32,000 nt of DNA from assembly GCA_026625185.1 (NCBI GenBank), contig CP113000.1, positions 30,001 to 62,000 on the forward strand, in the 5' to 3' direction. The notes below the pieces were generated by a model. The model saw only the letters and a list, made by a program, of their open reading frames with translations. It did no database searches and was not told the DNA's origin. Each line of letters opens with the position of its first letter. Position 1 is the first letter of the stretch. This DNA is from Thermodesulfobacteriota bacterium (GTDB lineage: Bacteria > Desulfobacterota > WTBG01 > JAGOGO01). Below, in pieces: positions 5,518-24,754 of the stretch. A program made the position numbers and the translations under genes.

Positions 5518-8500
5518 GACGAACTGAAACCACCTTGGATACTCCCGGTTCTTCCATCGTTATTCCGTACAACGTATCCGCGATCTCCATAGTCTTCTTG
5601 TTGTGGGTGATAACGATAAATTGGGAATTGGGAGCAAATTGCCTGAGGATAGCGACAAACCGATCAACGTTGGCATCATCCAACGGCGAATCAACCTCAT
5701 CCAGCAGGCAAAAAGGAGTGGGTTTGATGAGGTAGAGGGCAAAGAGGAGACTAATCGCGGAAAGAGCCTTTTCCCCACCCGAAAGAAGGCTGATGTGCCT
5801 GAGGCTTTTTCCTGCAGGTTGCACCATGATCTCCACTCCGGTTTCCAAAAGATCGCTCTCGTCAGTCAGGATAAGCTCTCCCTTACCCCCCGTAAATACT
5901 AAGGGCAGTATCTCTTTAAAATTCTCATTAACTTTATAAAAAGTGTCTCGAAACCTTTCCCGGCTGGTCCGGTTGATTTTTTGAATTGCCTCCTGGAGTG
6001 AATCCAGGGCGTTACTCAAATCTTCAGCTTGACTCCGATAAAACTGGTGTTTTTCAACCTGTTCTTCGTATTCCCTTTCCGCATTAAAATTTATTCCCTC
6101 CATCATTTTTTCCTGAGCGCGTTCAAATTTTTCAAGCTTGGTTTGAGTTTCTTCAATCGGATAGTCTTCCGCAGAAAATTGATCCGCTGTCTCATGGAGA
6201 GAAACATGATACTTGCTTTCGATCTTGTCTTCCAGAAATCGAACCTCAGTACTGAATTGGGCCAGCTCATGGTCAAGCTCCTGGATGGAAGGATTAAGGC
6301 TGTTAAACTCCTGTTGACCCACCTTCAGTCTTTCCTCATGTAAACGGAGATCGTGACGCGCCTCTTCAAGCTTGTTTTCTTGCTGATTGAGCGTTTCCTG
6401 GTGCGCCTGAAATAACCGGCTCATATCATCCATGCGGATAGTCGCTGCCGTAATCTCTTCGCGGAGTAAAGCGGCCTGTTGCTCTGCCTCTTCACGCAAC
6501 CTTTTTCCTTTCTCAATTTCATAGATACAGTTTTCGCGTGTCTTTTGCCGCAACTCTAAGGTCGAGGTCAAACTGGAAATCCGGGCTTTCAAATCCATGA
6601 GCACATTTTTATAGTGATTAAACCCGGTTTCCTGCGAGTCAATTTTTTCCTGACATTCTTTCTCTTTGCTCTGGAGCACCGAAAAGGTCTCCTCAAGCAA
6701 AGCTTGCCGCGAAAGGAGAGCTTCCAGCTCAAAAAGGTTTTTCTCCAAATCTTCCTCTATCTCCGCCAATTCGCCCTGAAGTTTGCGTTCTTCCAAAACT
6801 AAAAACTCGGTCTTTTTCTGAACCCGCTCGATTTCTCCTTGGTTTTGATGCAGGTCTCTTTCCGTATGTTGGAGAGAAAGTTTTTGCTGTATCAGACGAT
6901 ATTCTATCTCTTTAAGCGATCTTTTTTTTTCTTCTAAGTCACCGGTCGTTTCTTCTTTTTTACTTTGGAGATCGCGCAGCTCCTGAGTCAAAAAAGACAG
7001 CTTTTCTTCTAATTCGTTTACTTCCCGTTTTCTTTTTAAGAATCTACTCCCCGCGCCATTTTGGTTGCCGCCGGTAATGACACCTCTCGGGTCCACGATC
7101 TCTCCGCTTAAGGTGACCAGAGTATGAGCATCAGTCTGTTTCCAGATCGAAAGCGCCTGAGGTAAATCTTCCACCAGCAAAGCGTCACCAAGAAGGTAGC
7201 TGATAATCTGGTCAAAACCATCTTTGACTTTAACCAGGGTGATCAAAGGCGTAGCTTGGGGGGATAAGGAGCTCTCATGCTTATCCACAAAGGAAAACGG
7301 CTTTTCAATCTCAAGGGGGATAAAGCTCCCCCGGCCTAAAGACTGAGCCTTTAAGTATTCAACCGCTTCAACCCCTTCGGCCTGACTTTTTACGATCACA
7401 TACTGAAGCTTTTCTCCGAGAACCGACTCTACCGCCGTCTCAAACCGAGGGTCAGTCTCAATTACATCTGCCGTCAGTCCTAAAAGACCATCCCTTCCTT
7501 TCTCTAATTCGTCTTTTTTCTGCATGATGCAGCGAACTCCATCACTGCACCCTTCAAAGTTTTTTTGGAGTTCCTGGATAGAGTCCCTTTGGGATTCAAA
7601 CCGAGCTAAATTTTCTTTTCCGGTCGCGATCGCCTCGGTTACTTCCTTGATCTCCTGTTCCAGCCGGGAAATTTTATCCGTACAAATGGCCTTTTCTTTT
7701 TCCAAAAGTTCCTGGTCCTGGCGGCTTTTTTCTAACTCCCGGATGATGCTCGCATGTTTGGTTCTTAAAGCCTCATACTGTTCCTGAGACTCCCCACCCT
7801 CTTCTCCATTTCGTTCCAACCGTCGCTTATACTCATTTTTGGTCTGTTTGCCGTGGTCAATACTGTTTTCTCGGCGGCTTATTTGGTAACGAGCCTCAAA
7901 CAACTGTTCCCTCCGGTTTTCCAAGTCACTGCGGATAAGAGCGAAATCTTTTTTGAGCTGGGAGAGTTTCTCTTCCTCCCCTTTAAGAAGGGCTTCCATT
8001 TCCTGAAGCTCGGCTTGAGACTGATTTTTTAATGCTTCCGACTTCGTGATTTCTTCTTCCTCCAGCTGGAGGCAAGAAAGATTCTCGTCCATCTCCTTTA
8101 AGGCTTTTTCGCTTTGTATCCCTAAATCATTAATCTTTTCTTTCCTGCGGGCGCTGTTGTTTTCTTCCTCGCGCATAGAATATTCGAGTTCGAGGCTTTT
8201 TTTCTCCAGAGCAGTAAATTTTTCCTCTTCTGCCTGCAGATTCGTTTTTTTCGCGACCATATCCGCATCTACGGAATTTATCTCCGCCATCAAAAAAGCC
8301 TGCCGGTCTTTTAGTTTTCCCAGCTCGGTTTGTTTCAGAAACTCCTGGTTTGATAAGGCCGCGTACTGCTGGGAGGTCAAAGCCAATTCCAGGATACGGA
8401 TCCTGTCTTTGAGTCCTTTGAATCTTTTTAATTTTTGGGCCTGATACCTGAGAGAGCTGATTTGTTTCTCAATCTCTCCCAGCACGTCTTTTACCCGGAG

Positions 8501-12431: not shown

Positions 12432-13229
12432 TTATTTAACTGCCTTGGTAAAAGGCATACGGAAGAGGGCGAAAAAGGTTAATGCTGAGGCATGGGGGTA
12501 AGCCCCAATCCCGATTCGAATTTTTTCCTGATCCACATCTCGCAAAAACGTTTTTCCCATGCGATCCCATAGAGAAAAAATGGTGCCATAATTCGTATTG
12601 CGTTGTTTGATAATGACCGAGTGATGAATCCGGTGCATGGAGGGAGGAACAAAAAGAATCCAGAAAAGCTTTTCAAACCAAGCGGGAACTTTAACCGAAC
12701 TATGGTGAAACTGAGCGCACAAGACTATTGTACTTTCAAAAATCACAAGCCCCAATCCCGTTGGTCCCAGCAAGAAAATAAGGACTATTTTTAGAATAGC
12801 AGAAAATGTCAACTCTCCGATGTGGAAGCGGGTGGCAGTAGAAACGTCCATATTCAGGTCAGTGTGATGAACTCGATGAAATCTCCAAAAAAAAGGCATC
12901 TCATGGTTAACGCGATGCCAGAGGTAGAGAATAAAGTCAAAAACAAAAAGGGTCGCAACAAATTTTACCCACCTTGGAGATGAAAGCGTGGCGAGAAGGC
13001 CGATATTATTTTTTTGAACATATTCGAGGCTGGCAAAAATCAATGAGGCAAAACAAAGCTTAAGCACCAGGCTGTTAAAAAAAGTAATTCCAAGATTGTG
13101 CACCCATCGCCGGGATTTTGAAACTGTGATGGGGCGATACGGTATCGAAAGTTCGGCAACGAGAAAAAATACCAAGCCACCCAAAAACAAAAATAGTCGA
13201 ACGGATTCTTTATCGTGAAATGGCGTCAC
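12432..13229 (-). CDS. Fatty acid hydroxylase / sterol desaturase family membrane protein
   Basis: Histidine boxes HRVNHE, HRVHH and HRIHHS lie in a multi-TM protein. The ORF track start (13310) would overlap the upstream gene by 85 nt. I prefer GTG at 13229, which forms a GTGA stop/start overlap with the DedA gene. Confidence 0.8.
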   Translation of the reverse strand: MTPFHDKESVRLFLFLGGLVFFLVAELSIPYRPITVSKSRRWVHNLGITFFNSLVLKLCFASLIFASLEYVQKNNIGLLATLSSPRWVKFVATLFVFDFILYLWHRVNHEMPFFWRFHRVHHTDLNMDVSTATRFHIGELTFSAILKIVLIFLLGPTGLGLVIFESTIVLCAQFHHSSVKVPAWFEKLFWILFVPPSMHRIHHSVIIKQRNTNYGTIFSLWDRMGKTFLRDVDQEKIRIGIGAYPHASALTFFALFRMPFTKAVK

Positions 13230-13930
13230 TCGCCATGCCCTCCGGCAGAATATTTTTTCTTTATGGCCGTCAAGAGCCGGGGCGCAAGAATAAAAAGCCC
13301 GAGCACACAAAAGGCAAGCAGTATTCTTATGGAAAGAACATCTTTCACGGAGGTAATTTTTGTTAGTTGACTGCCGGCAAAAGAATAGACCAAAGAACCA
13401 GGGAAAATCCCCAGGGAGGTGGTCCAGATAAAAGTCTTTACCGGGATTTTGGTAAGCCCGGCAAAGAGGTTAATCAAAAAAAAAGGAAATAGGGGTATGA
13501 AACGAAGGGTGAGTAAATAATGGGGGCCATGCTGGGCTACCTCCTGGTTGAAGCGACATAGTTTTTCTTGGTATTTATTCTGAATCCAGGTGCCAGCAAG
13601 GTATCGGGAAGATAAAAACGCCACGAGCGCCCCAATGGTTGCACCAATGTTTACATACACCGCTCCCATGAACGCTCCAAACACAAAGCCGCCTCCCATG
13701 GTGAGAATGGTAGCCCCGGGCAAGGAAAGACCAGCCACCAGGATATATATCACAACAAACATTCCAACGGATAGAAGATAATTGCCAGCCGCGAAGTTTT
13801 GGAAAAAATTTTTGTGGTGTTGGAGATTTTCAAACGTTAAGGGCTCCGGTAATGTGGTAAAGCGGAGAAAAACAATGAGCGCAACAAAGGCTATTAATAG
13901 GATGATACGCTTATGCATTGACGTGCTCAC
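13226..13930 (-). CDS. DedA / TVP38-TMEM64 (SNARE-associated) family membrane protein
   Basis: 234-aa multi-TM ORF. Motifs LSLPGATILTMGGGFVFG and RFIPLFPFFLINLFAGLTKIP are typical of the family. GTG start in a GTGA overlap with the DUF2064 stop, with AAGGGA 9 nt upstream; an alternative ATG lies at 13918. Confidence 0.8.
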   Translation of the reverse strand: MSTSMHKRIILLIAFVALIVFLRFTTLPEPLTFENLQHHKNFFQNFAAGNYLLSVGMFVVIYILVAGLSLPGATILTMGGGFVFGAFMGAVYVNIGATIGALVAFLSSRYLAGTWIQNKYQEKLCRFNQEVAQHGPHYLLTLRFIPLFPFFLINLFAGLTKIPVKTFIWTTSLGIFPGSLVYSFAGSQLTKITSVKDVLSIRILLAFCVLGLFILAPRLLTAIKKKYSAGGHGE

Positions 13931-14649
13931 AATAAATTTTCCCTTACGGTAGGATTGGTTGTCAAAAATGACATGGTTTTTGAGTTTTTAAAAGGCGATT
14001 GCCTTCCGCGCTGGATAAGATTTTTTAAATCGCCTAAGCTATCGATGTCATGCCAGGGAGGCAAAATATAGGTTTTGTGTCCGGCATTTTTCAGCTTCGC
14101 TAACGATTCTTCAAAAACCTTATCAGTGCTCCATCTGATACCGGTAAAGGCTTCCGGAAAAAATGTTTCTTTTCGAAAACCAATCAGGTAATATCCTCCA
14201 TCAAAAGCTGGTCCGATCACGGAATCCATTGTGGTGATACTTGAAAAGGCCTCGGTTATGAAATAGGAAGGTAAGTCGGGACTGTCGCTCCCGATAGTAA
14301 TGACGCGGTCAAATCCTTGTGAAAAGGCATGGGTAAAACAATGCTTCATTTTCCCCCCCAGGTCGTTTCCCTGTTGAGGAAGATAAGAATGATTTTCGCC
14401 CAACCATGCTTTGCATTCTCGCGCTTTGTTTTCCTGAAAATAACAAATATAGAATGGAATGGCAAGCGGTTCGAGCATGGCAAGTAAGTCGAGGACAAAA
14501 TGCCGGTAGAGTTCAACAATGTTTATTGCCGCAAGAGAAGCAGCGAGCCGACTTTTAATTTGTCCACTTTCCGGGTATTTTACAAAAAAGAGCACACAGC
14601 GGTCATCAAAAGTGTTCGGGCGGTCCGAATGCTTGGTTGTGGTTGTCAT
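13927..14649 (-). CDS. DUF2064 family protein (TIGR04282-like 'transferase 1, rSAM/selenodomain-associated', now named arsenosugar-biosynthesis glycosyltransferase)
   Basis: The ORF track start (14739) overlaps the upstream giant gene by 61 nt. The ATG at 14649 (MTTTTKHS...) removes the overlap. CVLFFVKYPESGQIKSRLA, VITIGSDSPDL and GPAFDGGYYLIG match the DUF2064 pattern. Confidence 0.7.
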   Translation of the reverse strand: MTTTTKHSDRPNTFDDRCVLFFVKYPESGQIKSRLAASLAAINIVELYRHFVLDLLAMLEPLAIPFYICYFQENKARECKAWLGENHSYLPQQGNDLGGKMKHCFTHAFSQGFDRVITIGSDSPDLPSYFITEAFSSITTMDSVIGPAFDGGYYLIGFRKETFFPEAFTGIRWSTDKVFEESLAKLKNAGHKTYILPPWHDIDSLGDLKNLIQRGRQSPFKNSKTMSFLTTNPTVRENLL

Positions 14650-14678
14650 AAGTTTTTTAACCTTCTCAAGCCTACTTA

Positions 14679-17600
14679 TTATTCCTGTGCCCGGATTTGT
14701 CCCGCTTGGTCCCAGAGCGGGCACCCCGTTCGGATACATTCCTTATTGAGGTTGAATTGAGTGCATCTTAATTCGGTTTCTGCCGGCAAGAAATGTTTCA
14801 GATATTTCAGGGAAAGCTGCGAGGCAGTTTTTAACGCGAGCCATGATTCTCGCTGGCAACATCGGGCAGCTTTATAGCGGGCAATTCTTCCAGCAACCGA
14901 ACGGGTAATGTTCATAACGATTTGTCTTTTTTCTCCGGCATAGGGATTAGCTTTTAAAATTATTGAAAAAGCTATGCCCACGCCCATTGCCGCTCCGCAG
15001 ATACCTAAAAAAGAACAGGCCCCTCCGACAATAGTTTTTCCCTGCTCAATGGCAGTAAGGATATCCTGGCCAGTACTATTCCCTCCTAAATTTTTGTAAA
15101 CCGAAAGAATGATTGCGGGAACCAGGGAGTGATGTTCTGGTCCCTGCATGTTCAGGGAGGGATGAGTTCTGATTTTTTGTAAGAGTGCGATCATATCTCT
15201 ATGAGGTGCGTTAAGGCAGACCGACTGGATTACTTCCAGGGCATCACGGGAGTGACACTGATCACAAATAAAATGTCCGTCCACACAAATGGCATTCGAT
15301 AGGCATAAGCGACCACAATAAAAACATTCTGAGTGGTGCGAGTCCGAGAGATACTGAAGCTCCTTCCCACAAACCACACAGCCCGTTGCAGATTTGTGAG
15401 CTCCGGTTTCGGGTCTTCTGGCTTGGCTGACTTCGGGCGAAGGGGAGCAACAACAGGTGGCCTTTTGTTCGACATTAGTATTTGTTCCCTGTTGATCAAA
15501 GACAAAAAAAGATTCGTTTAAGGAAACCCTTGACGGAAAATTAAGGTGTTGTGGTTTTCCCCTCCGGATTATTTTTCCATCATCACTTATCACTGCATTA
15601 AAGGGGCCCCGATACAATATTTGTTGCGAACACGTTGGTTCCGGTTTGCAGGCGGTGTAGGTAAGCGAATAAAATTTATGATCTTCAATCTGGCGGTATA
15701 AGAAGCGTTTTTGAACAAAAATTTTTTCAAAGCTTAAATCTTCAAGCAGGGCAAACAGCTCCGATTCCTTCATGGCGCCGCCAAGACACTCCCCCCTCAG
15801 CTTTTCGTTATATTGAATTTCGAGGGGTACATTCCCTTCAGAAACAATATCGCAAATACACAACCGGCCTCCAGGCTTCAGGATTCGTTTTACCTCCCGA
15901 AAGGTCTGCCGTTTATCGGGCGATAAATTAATCACACAATTGGAGATAACCACATCAACGCTTTCCGGGGGTAGGGGAATTTCTTCAAGAAGTCCTCGGA
16001 TAAACCGAACATTATTAAATCCGAGGACGGTCGCTACTTTTTCGGCAATGTTCCGGGCTCGGTTAAGCATCACGGGCAACATATCAATGCCAATGATCAA
16101 GCCTTGGGAGCCGACTTTTTTTGCTCCCATAAAACACTCCACTCCAATGCCGCATCCTAAATCGACCATGGTTTCTCCCGGGGAGAGTGAACAATCCAAT
16201 ATTGGGCTGCCGCACCCATAACTGCAAACTCGGGCCTCTGAAGGTATATGAGAGATCTCTTCTTCAGGATAAGAGACCGGATTTACAATATCCGTATTGA
16301 GCGATTCAGTTGCGCGGGTATAAAAGGCGGTAACCCCGTCATGAAGGTTCTTTTTTGGGATAGACAGAAAACAGTTTGAATGGGTGAATGCAACGGGTGC
16401 ACTTTTTTCATCGCAGACAAGCAAACGTTCGCCCATGCGACACACCAAACCAACCTTATCATTTTGTTCATAACCTTTTGCTGCTTGAGCAAGAAGATAG
16501 AGAGCAATAAGATTATATAATTCTCCATAAGAATCAGCGCCCACAAAGGTTTTCCCAGCGATATAACTATGATCACAATCACCACCCCCGGTCAAAAACT
16601 TCAGGGGATTCCTTCCCTCTTTTTTATCCTGAATAAGGGAGCTGGTGCGCAGTTTTTTAAAGACCGGGCTTTTTTTCCAAACATTTTCTAACCCGTCAGC
16701 GATCGTTCCGGCAGCAAGCTCCCTTTCACCGATGAGCGCTGGTGATGGGTATATGGTTTCATCAGGTCCCACGGCAATGCTTTCCCAGCCGGCATTACTC
16801 AAATCAAATTTAGTCCCGGGAAGAGAAAAAATCTGAGACTTGATGCTTTCCACATTGTCAATGATTATGTTTTGGTGCCGAGCTTTTTCGTAGGCTTTCC
16901 TTAATTCGGAAAAAATTATGGAAGGAGGAACGAAGAAGTGCGGTTCCCCTTTTCCCTTTTTAAAAAACCAAAGATAATGGATATTGTTTATTTCCAGTTC
17001 TTGGGCAATAGTGACAATGGAAGCCATTTCCTGAAAATTATGCCGCGTGACCGTCATTGCTAGGGTAATGGGAAAACCAAATTTTTTCAAAAATCTCAGG
17101 GAAATCAGAAGGGCTTGAAAGGCCCCCCTTCCGCGGATGGTGTCGTGGGCTTTCTCTAATCCGTCCATGCTTATCTGGAAGTGAAGGCGGTCAGCGGGAA
17201 TTTTCTGCAACCATCCTTCAAATTTTCTCACATCCTTTCCATTTGTTAAAATAACCACACGAGTATCACCCTTTTTCAAGATGGCATCGCACGCCTCCTT
17301 TAACCCTGCATAGAGAAAAGGCTCACCTCCGGTAAAAAAGAAAACCTTGCAGCCTAAGCAATAAGCTTCGCCTATAGTGTTCATGAGTTTCCCATAATCC
17401 AGAGAAGTCTGAGTTTTCCGGTTTGATGAAAACATACAGTGCTTACAGGTCATAGTGCATTGGTCGGTAACATGAAACCAGCATTCTTTGAGGTTTTGGA
17501 GCTGGTGGTAATACCTGCGGCCGGGATATTTTGCTGGTCTACGATTATCAAAGCGGGATAATAAATTGTTGATAAGGAGCAAGGCTTGGAAAAAATCACA

Positions 17601-17780
17601 ACCAAATTTTTGATTGAATTTTTGGGCTATCGTGGGAAGAGCCCCCCCCCTTTTTAAGTTGCGAAGTATAAAATCTGCTTTAGGAGTTGGAATAAACCAA
17701 TCGGGTTTTTCAGGTTGAAGGTAAATGGGTATGGTATCAAATGTCAATCGCCGATAAGAATCTAAAATTTTCATAGTCAT
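14679..17780 (-). CDS. Tri-domain fusion protein: radical SAM enzyme + ArsM-type As(III) SAM-methyltransferase + C-terminal Cys-rich domain
   Basis: Uninterrupted 1033-aa ORF with a TAA stop. Radical SAM part: aa 108-115 CTMTCKHC (CX3CX2C) plus FFFTGGEPFLY. ArsM-like part (aa ~505-715): YGCGSP, VDLGCGIGVEC (SAM motif I), ISNCVINLSPDK, RGECLGGA. Linker with CCC (aa 776-778). Cys-rich domain (aa ~800-1033): CVVCG..CFYCG..CDQCH..GGACSFLGICGAAMG..RCC. Confidence 0.85.
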   Translation of the reverse strand: MTMKILDSYRRLTFDTIPIYLQPEKPDWFIPTPKADFILRNLKRGGALPTIAQKFNQKFGCDFFQALLLINNLLSRFDNRRPAKYPGRRYYHQLQNLKECWFHVTDQCTMTCKHCMFSSNRKTQTSLDYGKLMNTIGEAYCLGCKVFFFTGGEPFLYAGLKEACDAILKKGDTRVVILTNGKDVRKFEGWLQKIPADRLHFQISMDGLEKAHDTIRGRGAFQALLISLRFLKKFGFPITLAMTVTRHNFQEMASIVTIAQELEINNIHYLWFFKKGKGEPHFFVPPSIIFSELRKAYEKARHQNIIIDNVESIKSQIFSLPGTKFDLSNAGWESIAVGPDETIYPSPALIGERELAAGTIADGLENVWKKSPVFKKLRTSSLIQDKKEGRNPLKFLTGGGDCDHSYIAGKTFVGADSYGELYNLIALYLLAQAAKGYEQNDKVGLVCRMGERLLVCDEKSAPVAFTHSNCFLSIPKKNLHDGVTAFYTRATESLNTDIVNPVSYPEEEISHIPSEARVCSYGCGSPILDCSLSPGETMVDLGCGIGVECFMGAKKVGSQGLIIGIDMLPVMLNRARNIAEKVATVLGFNNVRFIRGLLEEIPLPPESVDVVISNCVINLSPDKRQTFREVKRILKPGGRLCICDIVSEGNVPLEIQYNEKLRGECLGGAMKESELFALLEDLSFEKIFVQKRFLYRQIEDHKFYSLTYTACKPEPTCSQQILYRGPFNAVISDDGKIIRRGKPQHLNFPSRVSLNESFFVFDQQGTNTNVEQKATCCCSPSPEVSQARRPETGAHKSATGCVVCGKELQYLSDSHHSECFYCGRLCLSNAICVDGHFICDQCHSRDALEVIQSVCLNAPHRDMIALLQKIRTHPSLNMQGPEHHSLVPAIILSVYKNLGGNSTGQDILTAIEQGKTIVGGACSFLGICGAAMGVGIAFSIILKANPYAGEKRQIVMNITRSVAGRIARYKAARCCQRESWLALKTASQLSLKYLKHFLPAETELRCTQFNLNKECIRTGCPLWDQAGQIRAQE
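14682..15386 (-). other. C-terminal Cys-rich domain of the fusion gene (DUF5714-like / C_GCAxxG_C_C-like; uncertain)
   Basis: Two CxxC pairs plus CDQCH resemble a zinc ribbon. These are followed by GGACSFLGICGAAMGVG and RCC..C..C..C. The family assignment is from memory only. Confidence 0.35.
15636..16268 (-). other. ArsM-like methyltransferase module of the fusion gene, with three candidate As(III)-binding Cys
   Basis: Cys523 (16212-16214, YGCG), Cys615 (15936-15938, SNCVINL) and Cys665 (15786-15788, GECLGGA) were verified at codon level. They correspond, from memory, to Cys72/Cys174/Cys224 of Cyanidioschyzon ArsM (YYGCG, VSNCVINLVPDK, WGECLGGAL). Confidence 0.7.
17436..17459 (-). other. 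Radical SAM [4Fe-4S] cluster-binding triad CTMTCKHC within the fusion gene
   Basis: Checked codon by codon on the reverse complement: tgc act atg acc tgt aag cac tgt. Confidence 0.85.
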
Positions 17781-17800: not shown

Positions 17801-18817
17801 TTATTTACCGTCAAAAAGAAACTCCGGCACTGCTTCCGGCCAGACCGTATTAACGGGAATGCGCGTGCCGGCTTCAAAGCCACCGGCAATTGTCAGCCGG
17901 GGGAGGATTTGAACATACATATGGTAAAAGGGAACGTGAGACAACGGATGGGGTGCGCTGTGAAAAAAGTAGTTAAAGTCTGGATTGTTCAGTTTGGCAA
18001 TATAGGCGGAGAGAACTCTTTTTAAGGCAATGGCGATATCGGTGAGCTCAACATCAAGGATATCTTCGTAGCAGGCAAAATGACGCTTGGGGACGATCCA
18101 GATTTCGTAAGGGGCACTGGCTGCATAAGGCGAGAGGACTGCCGAATGCTCGGTTTCAAAGCCTACTCGTTCCTTAAGGTGAAGTTCATGATCCAGTATT
18201 GTACAAAGCGCACAAGTACCATTGTCATCGAAAATTTTGTCCTGGACATGCATGGCGTTGCGGATTAAAGCAGGGACAATGCGGCTGCCAACAATCTGAG
18301 AGTGAGCATGGGTCTGCGAGGCACCAGCACTGGTTCCCTGATTTTTAAAGACAATCGTGACAAGATTATTGGGATTTTCCCTAAACAGTCGAGAAATTTT
18401 TAAATAGCTATTTAAGGTATTACAAATCTCCTCCTGGGACATGGCGCCCATTGGTCGGTTATGGATTCGACTTTCAATGACCAGATAATGGTTACCACAC
18501 CCTTGGTAATAGGAATAAATTCCCGATTTTTTAAAAGGCTCAGGACCTATGGGGCAGGTGGGAAGATCATCAAATAATTTGTATTTGTTATTGATTATTT
18601 TCGTAATCCATTTATCCGGTGAGGCACCACACGTATCAATTACCTCAAGGGGAAACTTTTCTTCGTTATCCGGACAAAAAGGGCACGATGGGGTATATTC
18701 CGGATGGTTTTCCAGAGACATAGTCGTTGGAGGGGCAAGGGCCCGCGGTTTTTCTCCACGTTCCGGGGCGATGACTGCCCAATTTCCCGTCAAAAAATTT
18801 TGTCTCAACTCAGACAT
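17801..18817 (-). CDS. Second GalT-like HIT-superfamily nucleotidyltransferase/phosphorylase (divergent paralog of 410..1408)
   Basis: 338-aa ORF: ELRQNFLTGNWAVIAPERGEKP, CPFCPDNEE zinc site, HAHSQIVG catalytic HxHxQ. Its stop lies 20 nt upstream of the fusion gene's start. Confidence 0.75.
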   Translation of the reverse strand: MSELRQNFLTGNWAVIAPERGEKPRALAPPTTMSLENHPEYTPSCPFCPDNEEKFPLEVIDTCGASPDKWITKIINNKYKLFDDLPTCPIGPEPFKKSGIYSYYQGCGNHYLVIESRIHNRPMGAMSQEEICNTLNSYLKISRLFRENPNNLVTIVFKNQGTSAGASQTHAHSQIVGSRIVPALIRNAMHVQDKIFDDNGTCALCTILDHELHLKERVGFETEHSAVLSPYAASAPYEIWIVPKRHFACYEDILDVELTDIAIALKRVLSAYIAKLNNPDFNYFFHSAPHPLSHVPFYHMYVQILPRLTIAGGFEAGTRIPVNTVWPEAVPEFLFDGK

Positions 18818-18905: not shown

Positions 18906-19619
18906 CTAGCTGAAAACTTTTATATAATCAATAAAGGAAATAGATTTTTCTCCGGTGTTATCCGAGTCGTTCATAATGGCGAGACTGGCAATTGCCGGAG
19001 GCTTATGCCCAAATGCTTCATGATAATCTTTGATGATGTTTATCTCATGGGCAGACCATTTTCCCACATTCGTGTCACCTTTATCCAGGAGTATCATTTT
19101 TGATTTTTCGGTATAGGGGCTGGTAATTATTCTTTCAAGGTATTCCTTACTTGACCAGATGTAATTCAGACTACTGTCGGGCGGGTAATCTCCATACCCA
19201 AGCCTGGCAGCTTCGTACTTTACTCTTTCGAAGAAGGGCGATGCTTCCGGGTCATATTTGAATATTATATAAATTCGAATCGGGTAATCATCCCCTTGCT
19301 TAATTTTTGGATCACCTTTTCGATACCCATTTTCTATCCTCCAACGCCATTTAATCAGAGGGTAGTCATAAACATTAAAGGTGTTGCGGTACATGATACC
19401 GGATGCGGAATTATCGCTTTCCGCTTTTAAGAAACAATTACCGGCCTCACAGGTGACGCTGTATTGGGTATATCTTTTTATTTTAGGGAAATGGAGGGGT
19501 TTCCAGTTATCGAGGCTGTTAAAGTCCTCAAGGAAAAGCACTCCTGACTCCTGGGAAAATGAGGGAAAGGTTATAAGGACGATGCCGAGAATGAGGAAAA
19601 ATGAGAAACTTTTAGACAC
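18906..19619 (-). CDS. DUF3047 family secreted protein
   Basis: 237-aa ORF whose only available start is GTG, preceded by GGAGGA. Signal peptide SKSFSFFLILGIVLITFPSFSQE. LFLEDFNSLDNWKPLHFPKIKRYTQY and a beta-rich body fit DUF3047 as recalled. 8-nt overlap with the GT2 gene's stop. Confidence 0.6.
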   Translation of the reverse strand: MSKSFSFFLILGIVLITFPSFSQESGVLFLEDFNSLDNWKPLHFPKIKRYTQYSVTCEAGNCFLKAESDNSASGIMYRNTFNVYDYPLIKWRWRIENGYRKGDPKIKQGDDYPIRIYIIFKYDPEASPFFERVKYEAARLGYGDYPPDSSLNYIWSSKEYLERIITSPYTEKSKMILLDKGDTNVGKWSAHEINIIKDYHEAFGHKPPAIASLAIMNDSDNTGEKSISFIDYIKVFS

Positions 19620-20325
19620 TGCTTCCTCCGGGGGGGTAAAATTTTGCTAATTTTGTTGGCGATATGCCAAGATAATACAAAGTTAAGAGAAACCAATTTC
19701 TCAGGGTACAGTAAATCACTCCTTCTTTTTCCCAGCGGCGCGGAGATGTAAAAACCGGTTCAGAAGATATGAAGATTTTACCCCCTGATTTTTTAATCCG
19801 CTGCATTAATTCCACATCTTCCATTAACGGGATGTCCTTATAGCCACCCAGGCTTAAAAAATAATCTTTTTTTATAAAGATGGCCTGGTCTCCGAAGGGG
19901 ATGCGGGTTAAGCGGGAACGCCAGGAAGCAACCTTGGCGATGAGTTTTAACACTACTTTATCAGATTTAATGCCAAAGTCAAAGGCTCCGCCAATATATC
20001 CATCTTCTTTCAAAATAAGGCCTGCCTGTTGAAAGGCATTGCGAGGCAGGTGAGTATCCGCATGAAGAAAAAGTAAAATTTCACCCCGGGCCAGATGAGC
20101 CCCGGCATTCATCTGCCGGGCACGTCCAGGCCCTGAAGAAAAACATTGGATATTTTTTTGATGGATCGACTTAATGGTTGTTCCCTTTGGGTCCCCATCT
20201 ACCACAATTATTTCATAAAGCTCTTTCCCTTGGAGCCGGGCAAGACTCTCCAGAAGGTCATTAATGATAGGGCCTTCGTGCAAAGCCGGAACTATAATTG
20301 AAAATTTACAGGTCGTATCCTGCAT
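19612..20325 (-). CDS. Family-2 glycosyltransferase, TIGR04283-like ('transferase 2, rSAM/selenodomain-associated', arsenosugar-biosynthesis glycosyltransferase family)
   Basis: 237-aa ORF: FSIIVPALHE, EIIVVDGDPKGTT, GRARQMNAGAHLARGEILLFLHADTHLP, FGDQAIFIKKDYF..GGY.DIPLMEDVEL, TSPRRWEKEGV. These match my recollection of that family. Confidence 0.8.
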   Translation of the reverse strand: MQDTTCKFSIIVPALHEGPIINDLLESLARLQGKELYEIIVVDGDPKGTTIKSIHQKNIQCFSSGPGRARQMNAGAHLARGEILLFLHADTHLPRNAFQQAGLILKEDGYIGGAFDFGIKSDKVVLKLIAKVASWRSRLTRIPFGDQAIFIKKDYFLSLGGYKDIPLMEDVELMQRIKKSGGKIFISSEPVFTSPRRWEKEGVIYCTLRNWFLLTLYYLGISPTKLAKFYPPGGSSV

Positions 20326-23095: not shown

Positions 23096-23374
23096 TCAGG
23101 TAGTTGGTTTAATTAGTTGTTTTTTTCTTAACGCCGAAGGCCAAGTAAAATCCACGCCGTAGGATTGACTGAGTAAATTACTCGAAATACGGGCGGATTC
23201 GTAAATCGTAGGGAGCCCGCTTCCTGGGTGCGTGCCGCCACCAACGAGATAACAGTGTTCAAGTTCTTCGAACTTATTGCGCGGCCGAAAATATAAAAGC
23301 TGTCTAAAGGTGTGGGCAAGGTTGAAAGTCGCTCCGATGTAAACATTATACGTATTTTTCACTCGCTTTGGGGG
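23096..23374 (-). pseudogene. Orphan 3' fragment of a CrtI-type phytoene/dehydrosqualene desaturase (C-terminal FAD-binding motif), in the +1 frame relative to the upstream desaturase ORF
   Basis: The translation YNVYIGATFNLAHTFRQLLYFRPRNKFEELEHCYLVGGGTHPGSGLP matches the CrtI C-terminal signature (Pantoea: [49 protein letters not shown]). There is no N-terminal part in this frame. Confidence 0.6.
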
Positions 23375-24734
23375 CTTTGAGAGCAAAATTCTTTTTTTTG
23401 TCGGAAACCACTCCGTAGATAGCTCCGCGGTTAGAATAATACCACCTTTGAATATCATCCGGGGTCCACATGTCTTCAACGATGATGTGCTTACGCAGGT
23501 CCTTGATTCCCATCCGTTCAATTTTATCCAAAACTTTTTCCCGGAGACGGAGGTAGTCTTCTTGGGTAAAAGGATTGTCCTGAATATACGGGATGTGGGG
23601 CAAAATTTTAATGTTCTCGCATCCGGGTGGTGCCTGGGATTTATCCGTCCGGCACGGAGCAACCACATAAAGCGTTGGATCATCAGGCAAAACTTTTTTA
23701 TGAAATACTGAATTAAAATGTTCTTTAGGATTGTTTGAGAAAAAGAAGCTGTGGTGCCCTAATTGGGGATATTCTTTATCGACCCCTAAGTGGAGAACGA
23801 GGCCTGAGCAGGCCGGCTCAAACTTCTCGTAGCCCCTGAGAAATTTTTTCTCTTCGTGCAGTAGTTTTTCATAGGCCGGGATAACTTCCATGTTGGAAAT
23901 AAATACATCTCCGGTTTTGACGTTTCCATCCTGGAGACGAACACCGGTTATTTTACCCTCGGCTTTTATCAGTTCTACGACCTCGGTATCTAAATAGAGT
24001 GTGACCCCTAATTCCTTAAGCAGGCGGGTAAGCCCCTCGGCAAGTTTAAACATGCCGCCCTTTACATACCAGAGACCATATTTGAGTTGAACATAGGGGA
24101 GAAGATTGAGGAGAGCCGGAGCGTCATACGCGGACGAGCCCACATACTTAACAAAAAAATTGAGAGTATCTTTCAAGTGGGGATTGCGGATAAACCGGGA
24201 AACACCTCCATCCATGGTGGAAAGCGCGTCAAAGGAACGGAGTAAAGAAAAAACTCCATAAAATTTTACCAGATCCCAAAAGGTGTCTAACCCTTTTTGA
24301 AAGTACCCTCGCTCGGTAAGGTCATACAATTTTTTCGAATACTCCATAAACCGGGAAAAATCTTCTATATCCTGAGGAGCAAGAAGAGCATTATGTTTTT
24401 TGAGGTCATCTTCCCTTGGATAGAGATCGATGATTTTTCCGTCTTCGAAAAAACAACGCCACTGCAGAGGGATCTCAACCAGTTCAACATAATCCTCCAT
24501 TTTTTTTCCCGCACGGGTAAAAAGCGCTGCAAATATGTGTGGCAGGGTCAGAATGGAGGGTCCCAAGTCAAAGGAAAAGCCTTCTTTTTTGAGACAATTT
24601 AGCTTTCCTCCGATATGACTGTTTTTCTCGTATACCTCCACCTTAAAACCTTCGCACGCTAATGAAAGAGCAGCTGATGCACCCCCCAAACCAGCTCCGA
24701 TCACAATTGCCGTGCGATTTTTTTCTCTGTTCAT
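23346..24734 (-). CDS. CrtN/CrtI-family FAD-dependent desaturase, 3'-truncated (lacks the C-terminal GG.THPG motif in frame)
   Basis: The ORF track has a GTG start at 24758. The ATG at 24734 ([23 protein letters not shown]) has AGGAGA 7 nt upstream and gives the Rossmann GxGxxG. The ORF ends ...[39 protein letters not shown], just before where homologs carry LY.VGG.THPG. Confidence 0.75.
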   Translation of the reverse strand: [462 protein letters not shown]

Positions 24735-24754
24735 AAGCATTCTCCTCGTTTTGA

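What the first reader, a model, noticed from the sequence alone, without database searches (positions are those of the whole stretch)
14679..17780. 1033-aa single-polypeptide fusion of a radical SAM enzyme, an ArsM-type methyltransferase and a Cys-rich domain
The sequence directly shows one uninterrupted ORF carrying three parts. (i) CTMTCKHC plus GGEPFLY, a radical SAM core; the ~140 aa after it has only scattered Cys and no canonical 7-Cys SPASM pattern. (ii) A class-I methyltransferase whose YGCG, SNCVINLSPDK and GECLGGA motifs place Cys at the three positions that bind As(III) in ArsM. (iii) A CCC triplet in the linker (15447-15455), then a ~235-aa domain with CxxC/CxxC/CxxCH and GGACSFLGICGAAMG motifs. 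In the known pathway, ArsM (methylation) and ArsS (radical 5'-deoxyadenosyl transfer to dimethyl-As) are separate proteins. A fusion would channel a toxic trivalent intermediate between two SAM-consuming active sites. The vicinal-Cys linker and Cys-rich tail could act as metalloid hand-off or auxiliary-cluster sites.
Basis: partly seen in the sequence, partly recalled or inferred. Interest (0 to 1): 0.85.

Follow-up and report, generated by a model that had tools for sequence, protein, structure and literature searches.

The report
Radical SAM–arsenic methyltransferase fusion enzyme
This is a real, widely conserved 1033-residue enzyme of anaerobic bacteria that joins a radical SAM domain, an arsenite-methyltransferase-like domain and a cysteine-rich domain of unknown fold. 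It sits in the gene cassette that elsewhere surrounds the arsenosugar enzyme ArsS, so it is probably a second, independently evolved way of making carbon–arsenic bonds.

Summary
One uninterrupted ORF (14679-17780, minus strand) encodes these modules in order:
- an RRE-like N-terminus;
- a radical SAM core with CX3CX2C and GGEP motifs;
- a SPASM-shaped region that has lost every auxiliary-cluster cysteine;
- an ArsM-like methyltransferase that keeps the three As(III)-binding cysteines;
- a CxC linker, a zinc-ribbon-like segment, and DUF5714.

It is not an assembly artefact. More than 100 full-length orthologs (43-84% identity) occur in at least eight bacterial lineages, including complete chromosomes.

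The radical SAM part is not ArsS. Its nearest sequence and structural relatives are peptide and cofactor maturases (CteB, SkfB, anSME, MftC, PqqE).

The surrounding genes, however, are the cassette that surrounds canonical ArsS elsewhere: TIGR04283 GT2, TIGR04282/DUF2064, DUF3047, DedA/VTT and a fatty-acid hydroxylase. No locus carries both ArsS and this fusion. Canonical ArsS–ArsM fusions with the same domain order are abundant.

Best reading (about 0.5): a bifunctional enzyme that methylates As(III) and then forms a radical C–As bond, feeding an arsenosugar-type pathway. It would replace ArsM plus ArsS. DUF5714 would act as a metalloid-binding or redox module.

No paper held in the searched library mentions DUF5714 or describes this fusion. 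Novelty: new variant of a known kind.

The parts
14679..17780 (-). Whole 1033-aa ORF (stop codon 14679-14681): RRE-like domain, radical SAM, pseudo-SPASM, ArsM-like methyltransferase, Cys-rich/DUF5714
   Evidence: The AF2 model has mean pLDDT 84.4 and pTM 0.70.
17496..17780 (-). Residues 1-95: N-terminal domain of three strands plus three helices (RRE/PqqD-like winged helix). W28 is invariant, and P23, P26, P31 and D36 are nearly invariant.
   Evidence: Secondary structure of the model. The Foldseek alignment to the RRE-containing sactisynthase CteB (5wgg) spans 468 columns. The StsB profile aligns from residue 22.
16881..17495 (-). Residues 96-300: radical SAM core. C108/C112/C115 (nt 17436-17459) form the CX3CX2C motif. 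T150-G-G-E-P154 is the SAM-binding motif.
   Evidence: Pfam PF04055, E 2.7e-18. The motif residues are invariant.
16416..16880 (-). Residues 301-455: SPASM/twitch-shaped region with no conserved cysteine ('NAGWESIAVGPDETIYPSP', 'GGGDCDHS'). G398, G399, D401, D403, H404 and S405 are invariant.
   Evidence: MftC, PqqE and StsB profiles align through residues 380-409. Foldseek TM-scores (normalised to the target) are 0.72-0.74 to CteB and anSME. No cysteine is conserved at 165-455.
16302..16415 (-). Residues 456-493: junction carrying invariant C456, H467, N469 and C470 ('THSNC')
   Evidence: Model confidence is lower here (pLDDT 58-82).
15447..16301 (-). Residues 494-778: ArsM-like class I methyltransferase plus the ArsM C-terminal domain. 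SAM motif is D540-L-G-x-G-x-G546. The As(III)-site cysteines are C523 (nt 16212-16214), C615 (15936-15938) and C665 (15786-15788). The module ends in the CxC/CCC motif at 776-778 (nt 15447-15455).
   Evidence: NCBIfam arsenite methyltransferase PRK11873 scores 212.6 bits, and the arsinothricin ArsM model aligns to residue 778. PDB ArsM and AS3MT match at E about 1e-30 with the cysteines aligned. Foldseek top hits are 6cx6, 4fr0, 5evj and 8xt7.
15246..15383 (-). Residues 800-845: zinc-ribbon-like β-hairpin segment with C801/C804/C819/C822/C832/H836/C839/C842(H843)
   Evidence: The cysteines are invariant. Strands in the models. The LIM-domain match is weak (E 0.1, not significant).
14712..15230 (-). 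Residues 851-1023: helical DUF5714 domain. C922, C974-C975 ('RCCQR'), C1006, C1015 and C1020 are invariant, and C928 is conserved in 92% of sequences.
   Evidence: Pfam PF18978, 184 bits. The MbdU selenoprotein profile matches 773-1027. No PDB fold match: best Foldseek E = 3 with a pLDDT 79.9 model.
19612..20325 (-). Operon partner: family-2 glycosyltransferase TIGR04283 ('arsenosugar biosynthesis glycosyltransferase' / 'rSAM/selenodomain-associated transferase 2')
   Evidence: 244.5 bits against a cutoff of 182. Fused to the C-terminus of the orthologs P0029, P0031 and P0032.
18906..19619 (-). Operon partner: DUF3047 protein
   Evidence: Pfam PF11249, 230.7 bits. Co-located with the fusion in 6 fusion loci and in 2 ArsS loci.
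17801..18817 (-). Operon partner: GalT-like HIT-family nucleotidyltransferase. This neighbour is clade-specific.
   Evidence: TIGR00209, 104.4 bits against a cutoff of 102.1. Found next to the fusion only here and in L005.
13927..14739 (-). Operon partner: TIGR04282/DUF2064 CofC-like transferase. The true start is probably M31 at nt 14649, because the family match begins at residue 50.
   Evidence: 181.2 bits against a cutoff of 134. Near the fusion in 22 of 78 loci and fused to it in P0032.
13226..13930 (-). Operon partner: DedA/VTT-domain membrane protein
   Evidence: Pfam PF09335. Adjacent in 12 fusion loci, often as a 713-aa VTT + pyridine-nucleotide-disulfide-oxidoreductase protein. Present in 6 of 14 ArsS loci.
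12432..13310 (-). Operon partner: fatty-acid hydroxylase-family membrane enzyme
   Evidence: Pfam PF04116. The same family lies next to the GT2 in ArsS-type and rSAM-less cassettes.

Best explanation
The protein is a bifunctional organoarsenical-biosynthesis enzyme of anaerobes. It does in one polypeptide what ArsM plus ArsS do elsewhere.

- Step 1 (inferred from close homology). The ArsM-like domain binds As(III) through C523, C615 and C665 and uses SAM to methylate it, probably to dimethylarsenite.
- Step 2 (inferred from gene context, not from homology). The radical SAM domain reductively cleaves a second SAM on its [4Fe-4S] cluster (C108/C112/C115). The resulting carbon radical attacks the trivalent methylated arsenic to form a new C–As bond. 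The most likely radical is 5'-deoxyadenosyl, giving 5'-deoxy-5'-dimethylarsinoyl-adenosine as ArsS does. The toxic intermediate would never leave the protein.
- Step 3 (inferred). The CxC linker, zinc-ribbon-like segment and DUF5714 domain form a metalloid-binding and/or redox module that captures or presents arsenic, or recycles the catalytic thiols.
- Step 4 (inferred from context). The co-transcribed TIGR04282 CofC-like transferase, TIGR04283 GT2, DUF3047, GalT-like enzyme, DedA protein and fatty-acid hydroxylase convert the adduct into an arsenosugar-type, possibly lipid-linked, product.

The radical SAM domain descends from RRE/SPASM peptide-maturase-type enzymes and has lost its auxiliary clusters. 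If this reading is right, ArsS-like chemistry arose here independently.
For: Domain evidence:
- The ArsM triad, the SAM motif and the ArsM C-terminal domain are conserved and align to solved ArsM and AS3MT structures.
- The ArsM-family score (212 bits, PRK11873) exceeds that of the ArsM halves of genuine ArsS–ArsM fusions (150-159 bits).
- The radical SAM CX3CX2C and GGEP motifs are invariant in 116 orthologs, so the domain is under selection as a catalyst.

Context evidence:
- The operon contains TIGR04283 and TIGR04282 above their curated cutoffs. In three orthologs these two enzymes are fused onto the C-terminus of the protein itself (P0029, P0031, P0032).
- Close homologs of the GT2 (48-63% identity) lie next to canonical ArsS (Radical_SAM + DUF3641, TIGR04167 at 417 bits). 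The accessory genes there are the same: DUF2064 11/14, disulfide oxidoreductase 7/14, VTT 6/14, FA hydroxylase 3/14, DUF3047 2/14.
- Gene orders match. L112 is VTT–PyrRedox–DUF2064–DUF3047–[ArsS-ArsM], with the GT2 adjacent on the opposite strand. L039, L078 and L080 are [VTT+PyrRedox]–[this fusion]–DUF2064–DUF3047–GT2.
- None of the 80 fusion loci has ArsS within 10 kb. Of 83 GT2 loci, 14 have ArsS, 1 has the fusion and none has both.
- Canonical ArsS–ArsM fusions with the same radical SAM to ArsM order are abundant.

Evidence on DUF5714 and on ArsS chemistry:
- DUF5714 also occurs fused to an ArsC-type arsenate reductase beside an HMA chaperone and a P-type ATPase. It also occurs fused to three other radical SAM lineages. 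Its selenoprotein relative MbdU carries a Cys-Sec motif.
- ArsS is documented to adenosylate DMAs(III) to DDMAA (PMC13598754).
Against: - The radical SAM domain is not an ArsS family member. Its nearest relatives modify peptides or cofactors.
- Only 22 of 78 fusion loci have DUF2064 nearby and only 11 have the GT2. Most orthologs sit among housekeeping genes. The same is true of the cassette relative to ArsS: 23 of 36 long GT2 loci have no radical SAM gene nearby.
- The TIGR04282 and TIGR04283 'arsenosugar' names are themselves annotation by association, not experiment.
- The window contains no arsenic-resistance genes such as arsR, acr3 or arsC.
- The canonical fourth ArsM cysteine is missing.
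- Model coordinates could not be read, so the distances between active sites are unknown.
- No biochemical data exist for any member.
Confidence: 0.5

Rival explanations
1. The pathway is arsenic-related as above, but the radical SAM domain performs a different radical reaction. It might attach the dimethylarsino group to a lipid or other carbon skeleton, making arsenolipid-type products. It might transfer a different SAM-derived fragment, as ArsL does. Or it might modify the co-substrate rather than adenosylate arsenic.
For: - The radical SAM lineage is unrelated to ArsS and has a different substrate-binding C-terminal half: a pseudo-SPASM region with invariant D401, D403 and H404 instead of the Cys-rich DUF3641.
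- Lipid-related operon partners are present: a fatty-acid hydroxylase and DedA.
- DUF5714 is also fused to TrsS, a relative of the tetraether lipid synthase Tes.
Against: - The fusion occupies the ArsS slot in an otherwise identical cassette. This argues for the same intermediate being handed to the same downstream enzymes.
- The lipid-related genes also occur in ArsS-type cassettes.
Confidence: 0.2
2. The enzyme and its cassette act on another soft element (Se, Te, Sb or a sulfur species) rather than arsenic. The ArsM-like triad would simply be a soft-metalloid binding site.
For: - The cassette was first defined as 'rSAM/selenodomain-associated' (JGI names).
- ArsS, ArsM-like and DUF5714-like proteins all have selenocysteine-containing forms.
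- There are no ars resistance genes in the window.
- An EgtD-like histidine methyltransferase lies next to the fusion in Bacteroidales loci.
Against: - Selenocysteine in an enzyme marks a catalytic or ligand residue, not a selenium substrate.
- The best-scoring families and solved structures for the methyltransferase are all arsenite methyltransferases.
- ArsS is experimentally an arsenic enzyme.
- DUF5714 is fused to an arsenate-reductase-type domain.
Confidence: 0.1
3. It is a RiPP or protein maturase. The RRE-like domain would bind a peptide, or the protein's own Cys-rich tail. The radical SAM domain would cross-link or modify it, and the methyltransferase would methylate it.
For: - The N-terminal 460 residues have the RRE + radical SAM + SPASM architecture of CteB, SkfB and SuiB.
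- The best NCBIfam matches are sactipeptide and other peptide maturases.
- Other DUF5714 proteins are fused to RiPP-type radical SAM/SPASM domains with an intact SPASM (P0300, P0332).
Against: - All SPASM auxiliary-cluster cysteines are lost.
- No conserved small ORF lies beside the gene across phyla.
- All matches to peptide-maturase families are far below their cutoffs (about 70 bits against 265-850).
- The methyltransferase keeps the full metalloid-binding triad of ArsM.
- The conserved neighbours are sugar/nucleotide transferases, not peptidases or exporters.
Confidence: 0.07
4. It is only an arsenite methyltransferase for detoxification. The radical SAM and DUF5714 parts would be regulatory, structural or vestigial.
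For: The ArsM-like domain is the best-scoring and best-understood part.
Against: - The cluster-binding and SAM-binding motifs of the radical SAM domain are invariant over 43-84% divergent orthologs. So are about 14 cysteines of the C-terminal module. Vestigial domains do not behave this way.
- The gene lies in a biosynthetic-type operon rather than an ars resistance operon.
Confidence: 0.05

Closest known systems
ArsS (TIGR04167, arsenosugar biosynthesis radical SAM (seleno)protein) and its natural ArsS–ArsM fusions (about 665 aa)
   Same: - Both are radical SAM enzymes physically or genetically coupled to an ArsM.
- The fusions share the same N-to-C order, radical SAM then ArsM.
- Both share the accessory cassette of TIGR04283 GT2, TIGR04282/DUF2064, DedA/VTT with or without a disulfide oxidoreductase, DUF3047 and FA hydroxylase.
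- The two never occur together in the loci examined.
   Different: - The radical SAM domain belongs to another lineage. It is 19-27% identical over the core only, TIGR04167 is not among its 25 best NCBIfam matches, and it lacks the DUF3641 Cys-rich domain.
- It has an extra RRE-like N-terminus and a cysteine-less SPASM-shaped region.
- It has an extra C-terminal module of about 235 aa (zinc ribbon plus DUF5714), which ArsS–ArsM fusions lack.
ArsM / AS3MT arsenite S-adenosylmethionine methyltransferases (CmArsM 4fr0/6cx6, CrArsM 5evj, human AS3MT 8xt7)
   Same: - It has the class I methyltransferase fold, the SAM motif and the ArsM C-terminal domain.
- Cysteines equivalent to CmArsM Cys72, Cys174 and Cys224 are present and invariant.
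- Identity is about 31%.
   Different: - The N-terminal cysteine (Cys44 equivalent) is absent where the ArsM halves of ArsS–ArsM fusions have 'CC'.
- Invariant C456 and C470 lie further upstream instead.
- The domain is embedded between two other domains.
- Its score is below the NCBIfam family cutoff (212.6 against 263), with only partial profile coverage.
RRE-containing radical SAM/SPASM peptide maturases (CteB 5wgg, SkfB 6efn, SuiB 5v1q) and anSME 4k37
   Same: - The fold of the first 460 or so residues matches: TM-scores (normalised to the target) are 0.72-0.74 to CteB and anSME and about 0.6 to SkfB and SuiB.
- These are the best sequence-family matches of the radical SAM part.
   Different: - It has none of the seven SPASM cysteines or the twitch cysteines.
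- It has no partner peptide gene.
- It is fused to a metalloid methyltransferase.
DUF5714 (PF18978) / MbdU 'metal-binding double selenoprotein' (NF045648)
   Same: The C-terminal 255 residues match both models. They share the invariant cysteine pattern, including the vicinal pair RCCQR.
   Different: - The window protein has no selenocysteine.
- The MbdU score of 127-131 bits is far below its cutoff of 600, and only the first 270 of 468 profile positions are covered.
- Here the module is a domain of a three-enzyme fusion rather than the stand-alone protein of about 240 aa that dominates the family.
ArsL (arsinothricin biosynthesis, noncanonical radical SAM C–As bond formation)
   Same: It is a radical SAM enzyme working with an ArsM to build a C–As bond (papers listed).
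   Different: I found no sequence relationship. ArsL transfers the 3-amino-3-carboxypropyl group and lies in an arsQML cluster. No such cluster is present here.

Membership tests
Radical SAM superfamily (PF04055) | CX3CX2C cluster motif, GGE SAM-binding motif, and a family HMM score above threshold | tested here: met
   C108/C112/C115 and T150-P154 are invariant. The score is 67.1 bits against a cutoff of 29.5.
SPASM/twitch radical SAM subfamily | C-terminal domain fold of the SPASM/twitch type | tested here: met
   Foldseek TM-scores (normalised to the target) are 0.72-0.74 to CteB and anSME. Profiles of MftC, PqqE and StsB align through residues 380-409.
SPASM/twitch radical SAM subfamily | Cysteines that ligate one or two auxiliary [4Fe-4S] clusters | tested here: not met
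   No cysteine is conserved between residues 165 and 455 in 116 orthologs.
ArsS (TIGR04167) | Family HMM score above cutoff (300 bits) | tested here: not met
   TIGR04167 is not among the 25 best NCBIfam matches of the radical SAM part. Genuine ArsS proteins score 349-417 bits. hhalign between the two families gives 19% identity, confident over the core only.
ArsS (TIGR04167) | C-terminal Cys-rich DUF3641 (PF12345) domain | tested here: not met
   There is no PF12345 hit, whereas ArsS loci show it.
ArsS (TIGR04167) | Genomic association with the TIGR04282 and TIGR04283 transferases | tested here: met
   Both are in the operon and are fused to the protein in some orthologs. This is evidence for 'works like', not for membership.
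ArsS (TIGR04167) | Adenosylation of DMAs(III) to DDMAA | not testable with these tools
   This needs anaerobic enzymology.
ArsM / AS3MT arsenite methyltransferase | Class I SAM methyltransferase fold with a DxGxGxG motif | tested here: met
   D540, L541, G542, G544 and G546 are invariant. The top Foldseek hits are ArsM structures.
ArsM / AS3MT arsenite methyltransferase | Three As(III)-binding cysteines (CmArsM Cys72, Cys174, Cys224) | tested here: met
   C523, C615 and C665 align to them and are invariant.
ArsM / AS3MT arsenite methyltransferase | Fourth, N-terminal cysteine (CmArsM Cys44 / AS3MT Cys32), which is needed for the first methylation in the characterised enzymes (from my knowledge of that literature) | tested here: not met
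   The aligned position reads 'NTDIVNPV' where ArsS-linked ArsMs have 'ACCTLD', 'VCCTVD' or 'GLCVPV'. Invariant C456 and C470 lie upstream and could substitute, but this is untested.
ArsM / AS3MT arsenite methyltransferase | NCBIfam curated cutoff (PRK11873, 263 bits) | tested here: not met
   The score is 212.6 bits over profile positions 38-241 of 272. This is higher than the ArsM halves of true ArsS–ArsM fusions (150-159 bits).
DUF5714 (PF18978) | Family HMM score above the gathering threshold over the full profile length | tested here: met
   The score is 184.4 bits against 26.2, covering profile positions 1-173 of 173.
MbdU double selenoprotein (NF045648) | Score above 600 bits, two selenocysteines, and a full 468-position architecture | tested here: not met
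   The score is 127-131 bits over profile positions 4-270 only. The ORF has no in-frame TGA.
RiPP radical SAM maturase | RRE domain that binds a leader peptide | tested here: inconclusive
   An RRE-like β3α3 topology is predicted and aligns with CteB. Binding cannot be tested.
RiPP radical SAM maturase | Adjacent precursor peptide gene | tested here: not met
   No small ORF is conserved beyond close syntenic relatives in 79 loci.

The most novel reading that the evidence does not exclude
Radical C–As bond formation has evolved at least twice. A peptide-maturase-type radical SAM enzyme shed its SPASM clusters and was welded to ArsM and to DUF5714. DUF5714 would be a previously unrecognised cysteine-lined helical fold that serves as a general arsenic/metalloid-binding module for radical SAM, reductase and sensor proteins. 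This produced a self-contained 'arsenic in, organoarsenical out' enzyme. It is widespread in sulfate reducers, anammox-related Planctomycetes, Bacteroidales and Atribacterota of anoxic sediments. Its product may differ from the cyanobacterial arsenosugar precursor, for example a lipid-linked or otherwise new organoarsenical. Such genes are currently counted simply as 'arsM' in environmental surveys.
Probability: 0.35. Interest if true: 0.8.

Novelty: new variant of a known kind. Interest (0 to 1): 0.68.

Why it matters
- Known biochemistry is thin. Organoarsenical biosynthesis is known biochemically from only a handful of enzymes (ArsM, ArsS, ArsL), mostly from aerobes and phototrophs.
- This family is large. 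There are more than 120 clusters at 90% identity. All of the 80 best-matching species-level genomes kept (out of up to 544 candidates) encode full-length copies. Two of those loci are cultured isolates.
- It is restricted to anaerobes that dominate arsenic cycling in sediments, aquifers and paddy soils.
- It is annotated only as 'DUF5714 domain-containing' or 'methyltransferase domain-containing' protein.

If it makes C–As bonds, several things follow:
- It gives an independent evolutionary solution to ArsS chemistry, which would be useful for understanding how a radical is directed at a metalloid lone pair.
- It assigns a first function to DUF5714 and to a cluster-less SPASM fold.
- arsM-based gene surveys would be conflating detoxifying methyltransferases with biosynthetic fusion enzymes.
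- It offers cultured, testable carriers: Desulfoluna butyratoxydans MSL71 and Hydrosulfovibrio ferrireducens CB1MN.
- It also gives a handle on what the long-unexplained 'rSAM/selenodomain-associated transferases' do.

Tried and rejected
- **Assembly or frameshift artefact.** Rejected. The architecture recurs in more than 100 independent assemblies, including closed chromosomes.
- **ArsS membership of the radical SAM domain.** Rejected.
- **Precursor-peptide search.** ORFs of 20-90 aa within 1.2 kb of the gene in 79 loci gave only alternative-frame artefacts of syntenic neighbours.
- **Fold assignment of DUF5714.** Foldseek against the PDB found nothing (best E = 3). A sequence search of the PDB gave only a non-significant LIM-domain match.
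- **Literature.** There are 0 papers for 'DUF5714'. Nothing relevant came up for DUF2064/DUF3047, 'MbdU' (all hits were an unrelated surgical abbreviation), arsenolipid + radical SAM, or arsenite methyltransferase + radical SAM + fused. The one exception was a selenoproteome review table.
- **Placing the MbdU 'CU' selenocysteine site.** I looked for ORFs truncated at 'RC'. This failed, and the site could be either CxC 776-778 or RCC 974-975.
- **A split version of the protein.** The ORFs beside a stand-alone DUF5714 gene (L171) and beside a radical SAM–DUF5714 gene (L168) are unrelated to the fusion.
- **Contexts of TrsS–DUF5714 and other DUF5714 proteins.** These gave no arsenic link except the ArsC-type fusion next to HMA and a P-type ATPase.
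- **Consensus promoter and terminator scan of the operon.** Uninformative.
- **Inter-domain distances in the AF2 model.** Not obtainable, because coordinates are not exposed.

Full report
**1. The observation**

The minus-strand ORF 14679..17780 is uninterrupted and encodes 1033 residues. Pfam places Radical_SAM at residues 104-254, a class I methyltransferase (Methyltransf_31 and relatives) at 533-666, and DUF5714 at 851-1023.

- CTMTCKHC is C108/C112/C115, and GGEPF is residues 151-155.
- YGCG (C523), SNCVINLSPDK (C615) and GECLGGA (C665) are present.
- The CCC triplet is residues 776-778 (nt 15447-15455).
- It is followed by CxxC/CxxC/CxxCH and GGACSFLGICGAAMG.

In alignments of 116 and of 34 full-length orthologs the following are invariant:
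- the radical SAM cysteines and the TGGEP motif;
- the methyltransferase DLGxGxG motif and the three ArsM-type cysteines;
- C456 and C470;
- seven cysteines of a zinc-ribbon-like segment (801-842);
- six cysteines of DUF5714.

C776 is conserved in 99% of the 116 sequences and C928 in 92%. No cysteine between residues 165 and 455 is conserved.

**2. Not an artefact**

A search of 5.8 billion proteins returned 588 hits at E ≤ 1e-10. The best 120 are nearly all 970-1090 residues long with the same three Pfam domains, at 43-84% identity.

A scan of one genome per species found up to 544 genomes with a relative. This is an upper bound, because the search patterns can also hit plain ArsM. The 80 best were all full-length matches. 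They came from:
- Desulfobacterales, Desulfobulbales and Geopsychrobacteraceae;
- Planctomycetes, including Brocadiaceae;
- Bacteroidales, Atribacterota and Clostridia;
- Acidobacteriota, Fibrobacterota and Chitinivibrionales.

Several are closed chromosomes. Two are cultured isolates, Hydrosulfovibrio ferrireducens CB1MN and Desulfoluna butyratoxydans MSL71, and one is a MAG assigned to Malonomonas rubra. The identical protein is deposited from a 3.3-Mb contig as 'MAG: DUF5714 domain-containing protein [Thermodesulfobacteriota bacterium]'.

**3. Anatomy**

AlphaFold2 with the ortholog alignment gives a confident model: mean pLDDT 84.4 and pTM 0.70. Only the linker 772-799, residues 919-926 and the C-terminal residues 1029-1033 have pLDDT below 50.

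- *Residues 1-75* form three strands and three helices, the topology of an RRE/PqqD-like domain.
- *The first 460 or so residues* superpose on RRE-containing radical SAM/SPASM peptide maturases and on anSME. The TM-score (normalised to the target) is 0.72 to CteB (5wgg) over 468 columns and 0.74 to anSME. SkfB, SuiB, BlsE and ChlB also match.
- *NCBIfam agrees.* The best matches are StsB, Rv1681, ScmE, SbtM, MftC, AlbA, AhbD, NirJ and PqqE, all near 70 bits and far below their cutoffs. Several profiles align through residue 380-409, that is, through the SPASM region.
- *That region has lost every auxiliary-cluster cysteine.* 'NAGWESIAVGPDETIYPSP' and 'GGGDCDHS' stand where SPASM proteins have Cys-rich motifs.
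- *The methyltransferase* matches solved ArsM and AS3MT structures at E about 1e-30 and about 31% identity. C523, C615 and C665 lie exactly on CmArsM Cys72, Cys174 and Cys224.
- *The ArsM C-terminal domain* is also retained, up to the CxC motif. The arsinothricin ArsM profile aligns to residue 778.
- *The canonical fourth cysteine* (CmArsM Cys44) is not at its homologous position. The window has 'NTDIVNPV' where ArsS-linked ArsMs have 'ACCTLD', 'VCCTVD' or 'GLCVPV'.
- *The C-terminal 235 residues* are a β-hairpin zinc-ribbon-like piece plus an all-helical DUF5714 domain. A separate model of this part (pLDDT 79.9) has no match in the PDB, with a best Foldseek E of 3.

**4. Surroundings**

The gene lies in a tight minus-strand operon:
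- GT2 of family TIGR04283 (19612-20325);
- DUF3047 (18906-19619);
- a GalT-like HIT enzyme (17801-18817);
- the fusion itself;
- a TIGR04282/DUF2064 CofC-like transferase (13927-14739);
- a DedA/VTT membrane protein (13226-13930);
- a fatty-acid-hydroxylase-family protein (12432-13310).

TIGR04282 and TIGR04283 score above their curated cutoffs. NCBI names them 'arsenosugar biosynthesis glycosyltransferase', and JGI names them 'rSAM/selenodomain-associated transferase'.

Three orthologs carry these enzymes as additional C-terminal domains of the same polypeptide. P0029 and P0031 add the GT2. P0032 (1504 aa) adds the GT2 and DUF2064.

Over 78 orthologous loci, the neighbours found were:
- DUF2064 in 22;
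- VTT in 12, often as a 713-aa VTT + pyridine-nucleotide-disulfide-oxidoreductase protein;
- GT2 in 11;
- DUF3047 in 6.

The remaining loci show housekeeping synteny.

**5. The decisive comparison**

I asked what sits next to close homologs of the window's GT2.
- In L085 it is a canonical ArsS (Radical_SAM + DUF3641; TIGR04167 at 417 bits).
- In L084 the order is GT2–VTT–ArsS–DUF2064.
- In L083 the order is GT2–FA hydroxylase–DUF2064.

A metagenome scan with a GT2 alignment gave 80 more loci. Of the 83 GT2 loci in total, 14 have ArsS adjacent, one (L122) has the fusion, and none has both. Of the 36 loci of 8 kb or longer, 12 have ArsS and 1 has the fusion.

The ArsS loci carry the same accessory genes: DUF2064 11/14, disulfide oxidoreductase 7/14, VTT 6/14, FA hydroxylase 3/14 and DUF3047 2/14.

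Gene orders are superimposable. L112 reads VTT–oxidoreductase–DUF2064–DUF3047–[ArsS/ArsM], with the GT2 adjacent on the opposite strand. L039, L078 and L080 read [VTT+oxidoreductase]–[fusion]–DUF2064–DUF3047–GT2.

Conversely, none of the 80 fusion loci has an ArsS within 10 kb.

In L112 and L096 the ArsM is not a separate gene. It is the C-terminal half of a 687/678-aa canonical ArsS–ArsM fusion, with TIGR04167 at 349 and 363 bits against a cutoff of 300. Such fusions are abundant. There are 968 hits at E ≤ 1e-20, and the best 120 are all full-length. They come from Arcobacter, Sulfurospirillum, Nitrospirota and others, and are annotated only as 'ArsS'.

So nature repeatedly fuses a radical SAM enzyme N-terminally to ArsM within this cassette. 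The window protein is a second, non-orthologous version of that arrangement.

**6. How it most likely works**

*Shown:* catalytic motifs for two SAM-using sites are under strong purifying selection. The methyltransferase has the metalloid-binding triad of ArsM. The gene occupies the ArsS/ArsM slot of a shared cassette.

*Established elsewhere:* ArsS adenosylates DMAs(III) to 5'-deoxy-5'-dimethylarsinoyl-adenosine in a redox-neutral radical reaction (PMC13598754).

*Inferred:*
- The ArsM-like domain makes a trivalent methylated arsenical.
- The radical SAM domain adds a SAM-derived carbon radical to it, most simply 5'-deoxyadenosyl.
- The CofC-like transferase, the GT2, DUF3047, the GalT-like enzyme and the membrane proteins process the adduct to an arsenosugar-type, perhaps lipid-linked, product.

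In ArsS the Cys/Sec-rich DUF3641 domain is the obvious candidate for holding the arsenical. In this family the equivalent SPASM-like region has no cysteine. That role must therefore fall to the ArsM triad, to the invariant C456/C470 pair at the domain junction, or to the C-terminal module.

**7. DUF5714**

The module (zinc ribbon plus DUF5714) hits 947 clusters at 50% identity (E ≤ 1e-3). Many are stand-alone proteins of about 240 residues. Other architectures include:
- DUF5714 + a thioredoxin-type ArsC arsenate-reductase domain, encoded next to an HMA metallochaperone and a P-type ATPase;
- TrsS radical SAM + DUF5714;
- two RiPP-type radical SAM/SPASM + DUF5714 proteins without a methyltransferase;
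- GGDEF + DUF5714;
- DUF5714 + solute-binding domain + kinase.

The related selenoprotein MbdU is listed with a Cys-Sec ('CU') motif (PMC13188914). I could not place that motif on the alignment. Both the CxC at 776-778 and the invariant RCCQR pair at 974-975 are candidates.

Together these point to a soft-metal/metalloid-binding or thiol-redox module that is repeatedly teamed with radical SAM enzymes. Its exact role is unknown.

**8. Rivals**

- A different radical reaction on the same arsenic pathway (0.2).
- Another element such as Se, Te or Sb (0.1).
- A peptide or protein maturase (0.07).
- A plain detoxifying ArsM with vestigial partner domains (0.05).

Evidence for and against each is in the Rival explanations entries. 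The strongest caveats to the preferred reading are these:
- The radical SAM lineage is peptide-maturase-like.
- Most orthologs are not next to the cassette.
- The cassette's 'arsenosugar' label is itself inferred by association.
- There are no ars resistance genes in the window.
- No member has been studied experimentally.

**9. Known or new**

No paper in the searchable library contains 'DUF5714', and none describes this fusion. No NCBIfam equivalog names it.

It fails the membership tests for ArsS and for the SPASM cluster-binding subfamily. It is a member of the radical SAM superfamily and of DUF5714. It is ArsM-like with three of the four hallmark cysteines.

I class it as a new variant of a known kind: organoarsenical biosynthesis by ArsM plus a radical SAM enzyme. 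It is built from a different radical SAM lineage and an additional domain of unknown fold.

Noticed in passing
L112:about 6015-8000 (-) and L096:about 5365-7330 (+); P0389-P0508: Canonical ArsS (TIGR04167) and ArsM occur as a single polypeptide of about 665 aa in many Campylobacterota, Nitrospirota and other genomes. Databases label them only 'ArsS' or 'radical SAM/Cys-rich protein', so the ArsM half goes unannotated.
   Followed up: yes
P0342; L166/L167:8001-9077: DUF5714 is fused to a thioredoxin-type ArsC / low-molecular-weight phosphatase domain. The gene lies directly upstream of an HMA metallochaperone and a P-type ATPase. The exact sequence is listed in 115 blocks of the assembly collection, so it appears to be common.
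   Followed up: partly
P0293; L169:1408-3789, L170:1253-3634: A TrsS-type radical SAM protein (a relative of the tetraether lipid synthase Tes) is fused to DUF5714. It is preceded by a 64-aa DUF7479/LIM-like zinc-finger protein and followed by cobalt/cobalamin transport genes (CbiM, CbiN, CbiZ, BtuF-like).
   Followed up: no
L006:7069-14098, L013:2073-9451: In Bacteroidales the fusion is flanked by DUF2064, a DUF547 protein and an EgtD-like histidine-specific methyltransferase (Methyltransf_33). EgtD-type enzymes make the ergothioneine/selenoneine precursor, so the link to this enzyme is unexplained.
   Followed up: no
L001:9031-15651: In a 5-Mb chromosome the fusion gene is embedded in an NMT1-type ABC transporter operon (two substrate-binding proteins, a permease and an ATPase), with DUF2064 upstream. 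This may be a dedicated uptake or export system.
   Followed up: no
window:410-1408 (-): A second GalT-like (galactose-1-phosphate uridylyltransferase family) paralog lies 16 kb from the one in the operon. It is next to LarB (1467-2216) and ThiL (2289-3296).
   Followed up: no
window:20382-23087 (-): Three consecutive ORFs (118, 229 and 506 aa) directly upstream of the operon have no significant Pfam or NCBIfam match. A 507-aa protein of unknown family also sits inside the cassette in L039 (13638-15161). It clusters with one other unidentified ORF, and I did not test its relation to the window's 506-aa ORF.
   Followed up: partly
window:23346-28039: A lipid/isoprenoid-looking cluster lies here. 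It has a CrtI/CrtD-family desaturase (23346-24758), an aldehyde dehydrogenase (24755-26224), a truncated-looking NAD-epimerase fragment (26411-26761) and a divergently transcribed squalene/phytoene-synthase-like gene (26993-28039). I did not test whether it is functionally tied to the arsenic operon.
   Followed up: no
window:14649-14739: The DUF2064 ORF as listed overlaps the end of the fusion gene by 61 nt. The family match starts at residue 50. The real start is therefore probably the ATG at nt 14649 (M31), which leaves a short intergenic gap.
   Followed up: partly
L084:12432-13390: The ArsS gene in this locus is called as two pieces (Radical_SAM 187 aa + DUF3641 92 aa). My translation shows a frame change rather than a single in-frame TGA, so it is a frameshift or sequencing error rather than a selenocysteine codon.
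   Followed up: partly
L005, L021: In two of the 80 orthologous loci my simple longest-ORF caller gave a shorter fusion ORF (791 and 841 aa), although tblastn matches the full length. This could be sequencing errors in the MAGs, an ORF-caller effect or pseudogenes.
   Followed up: no
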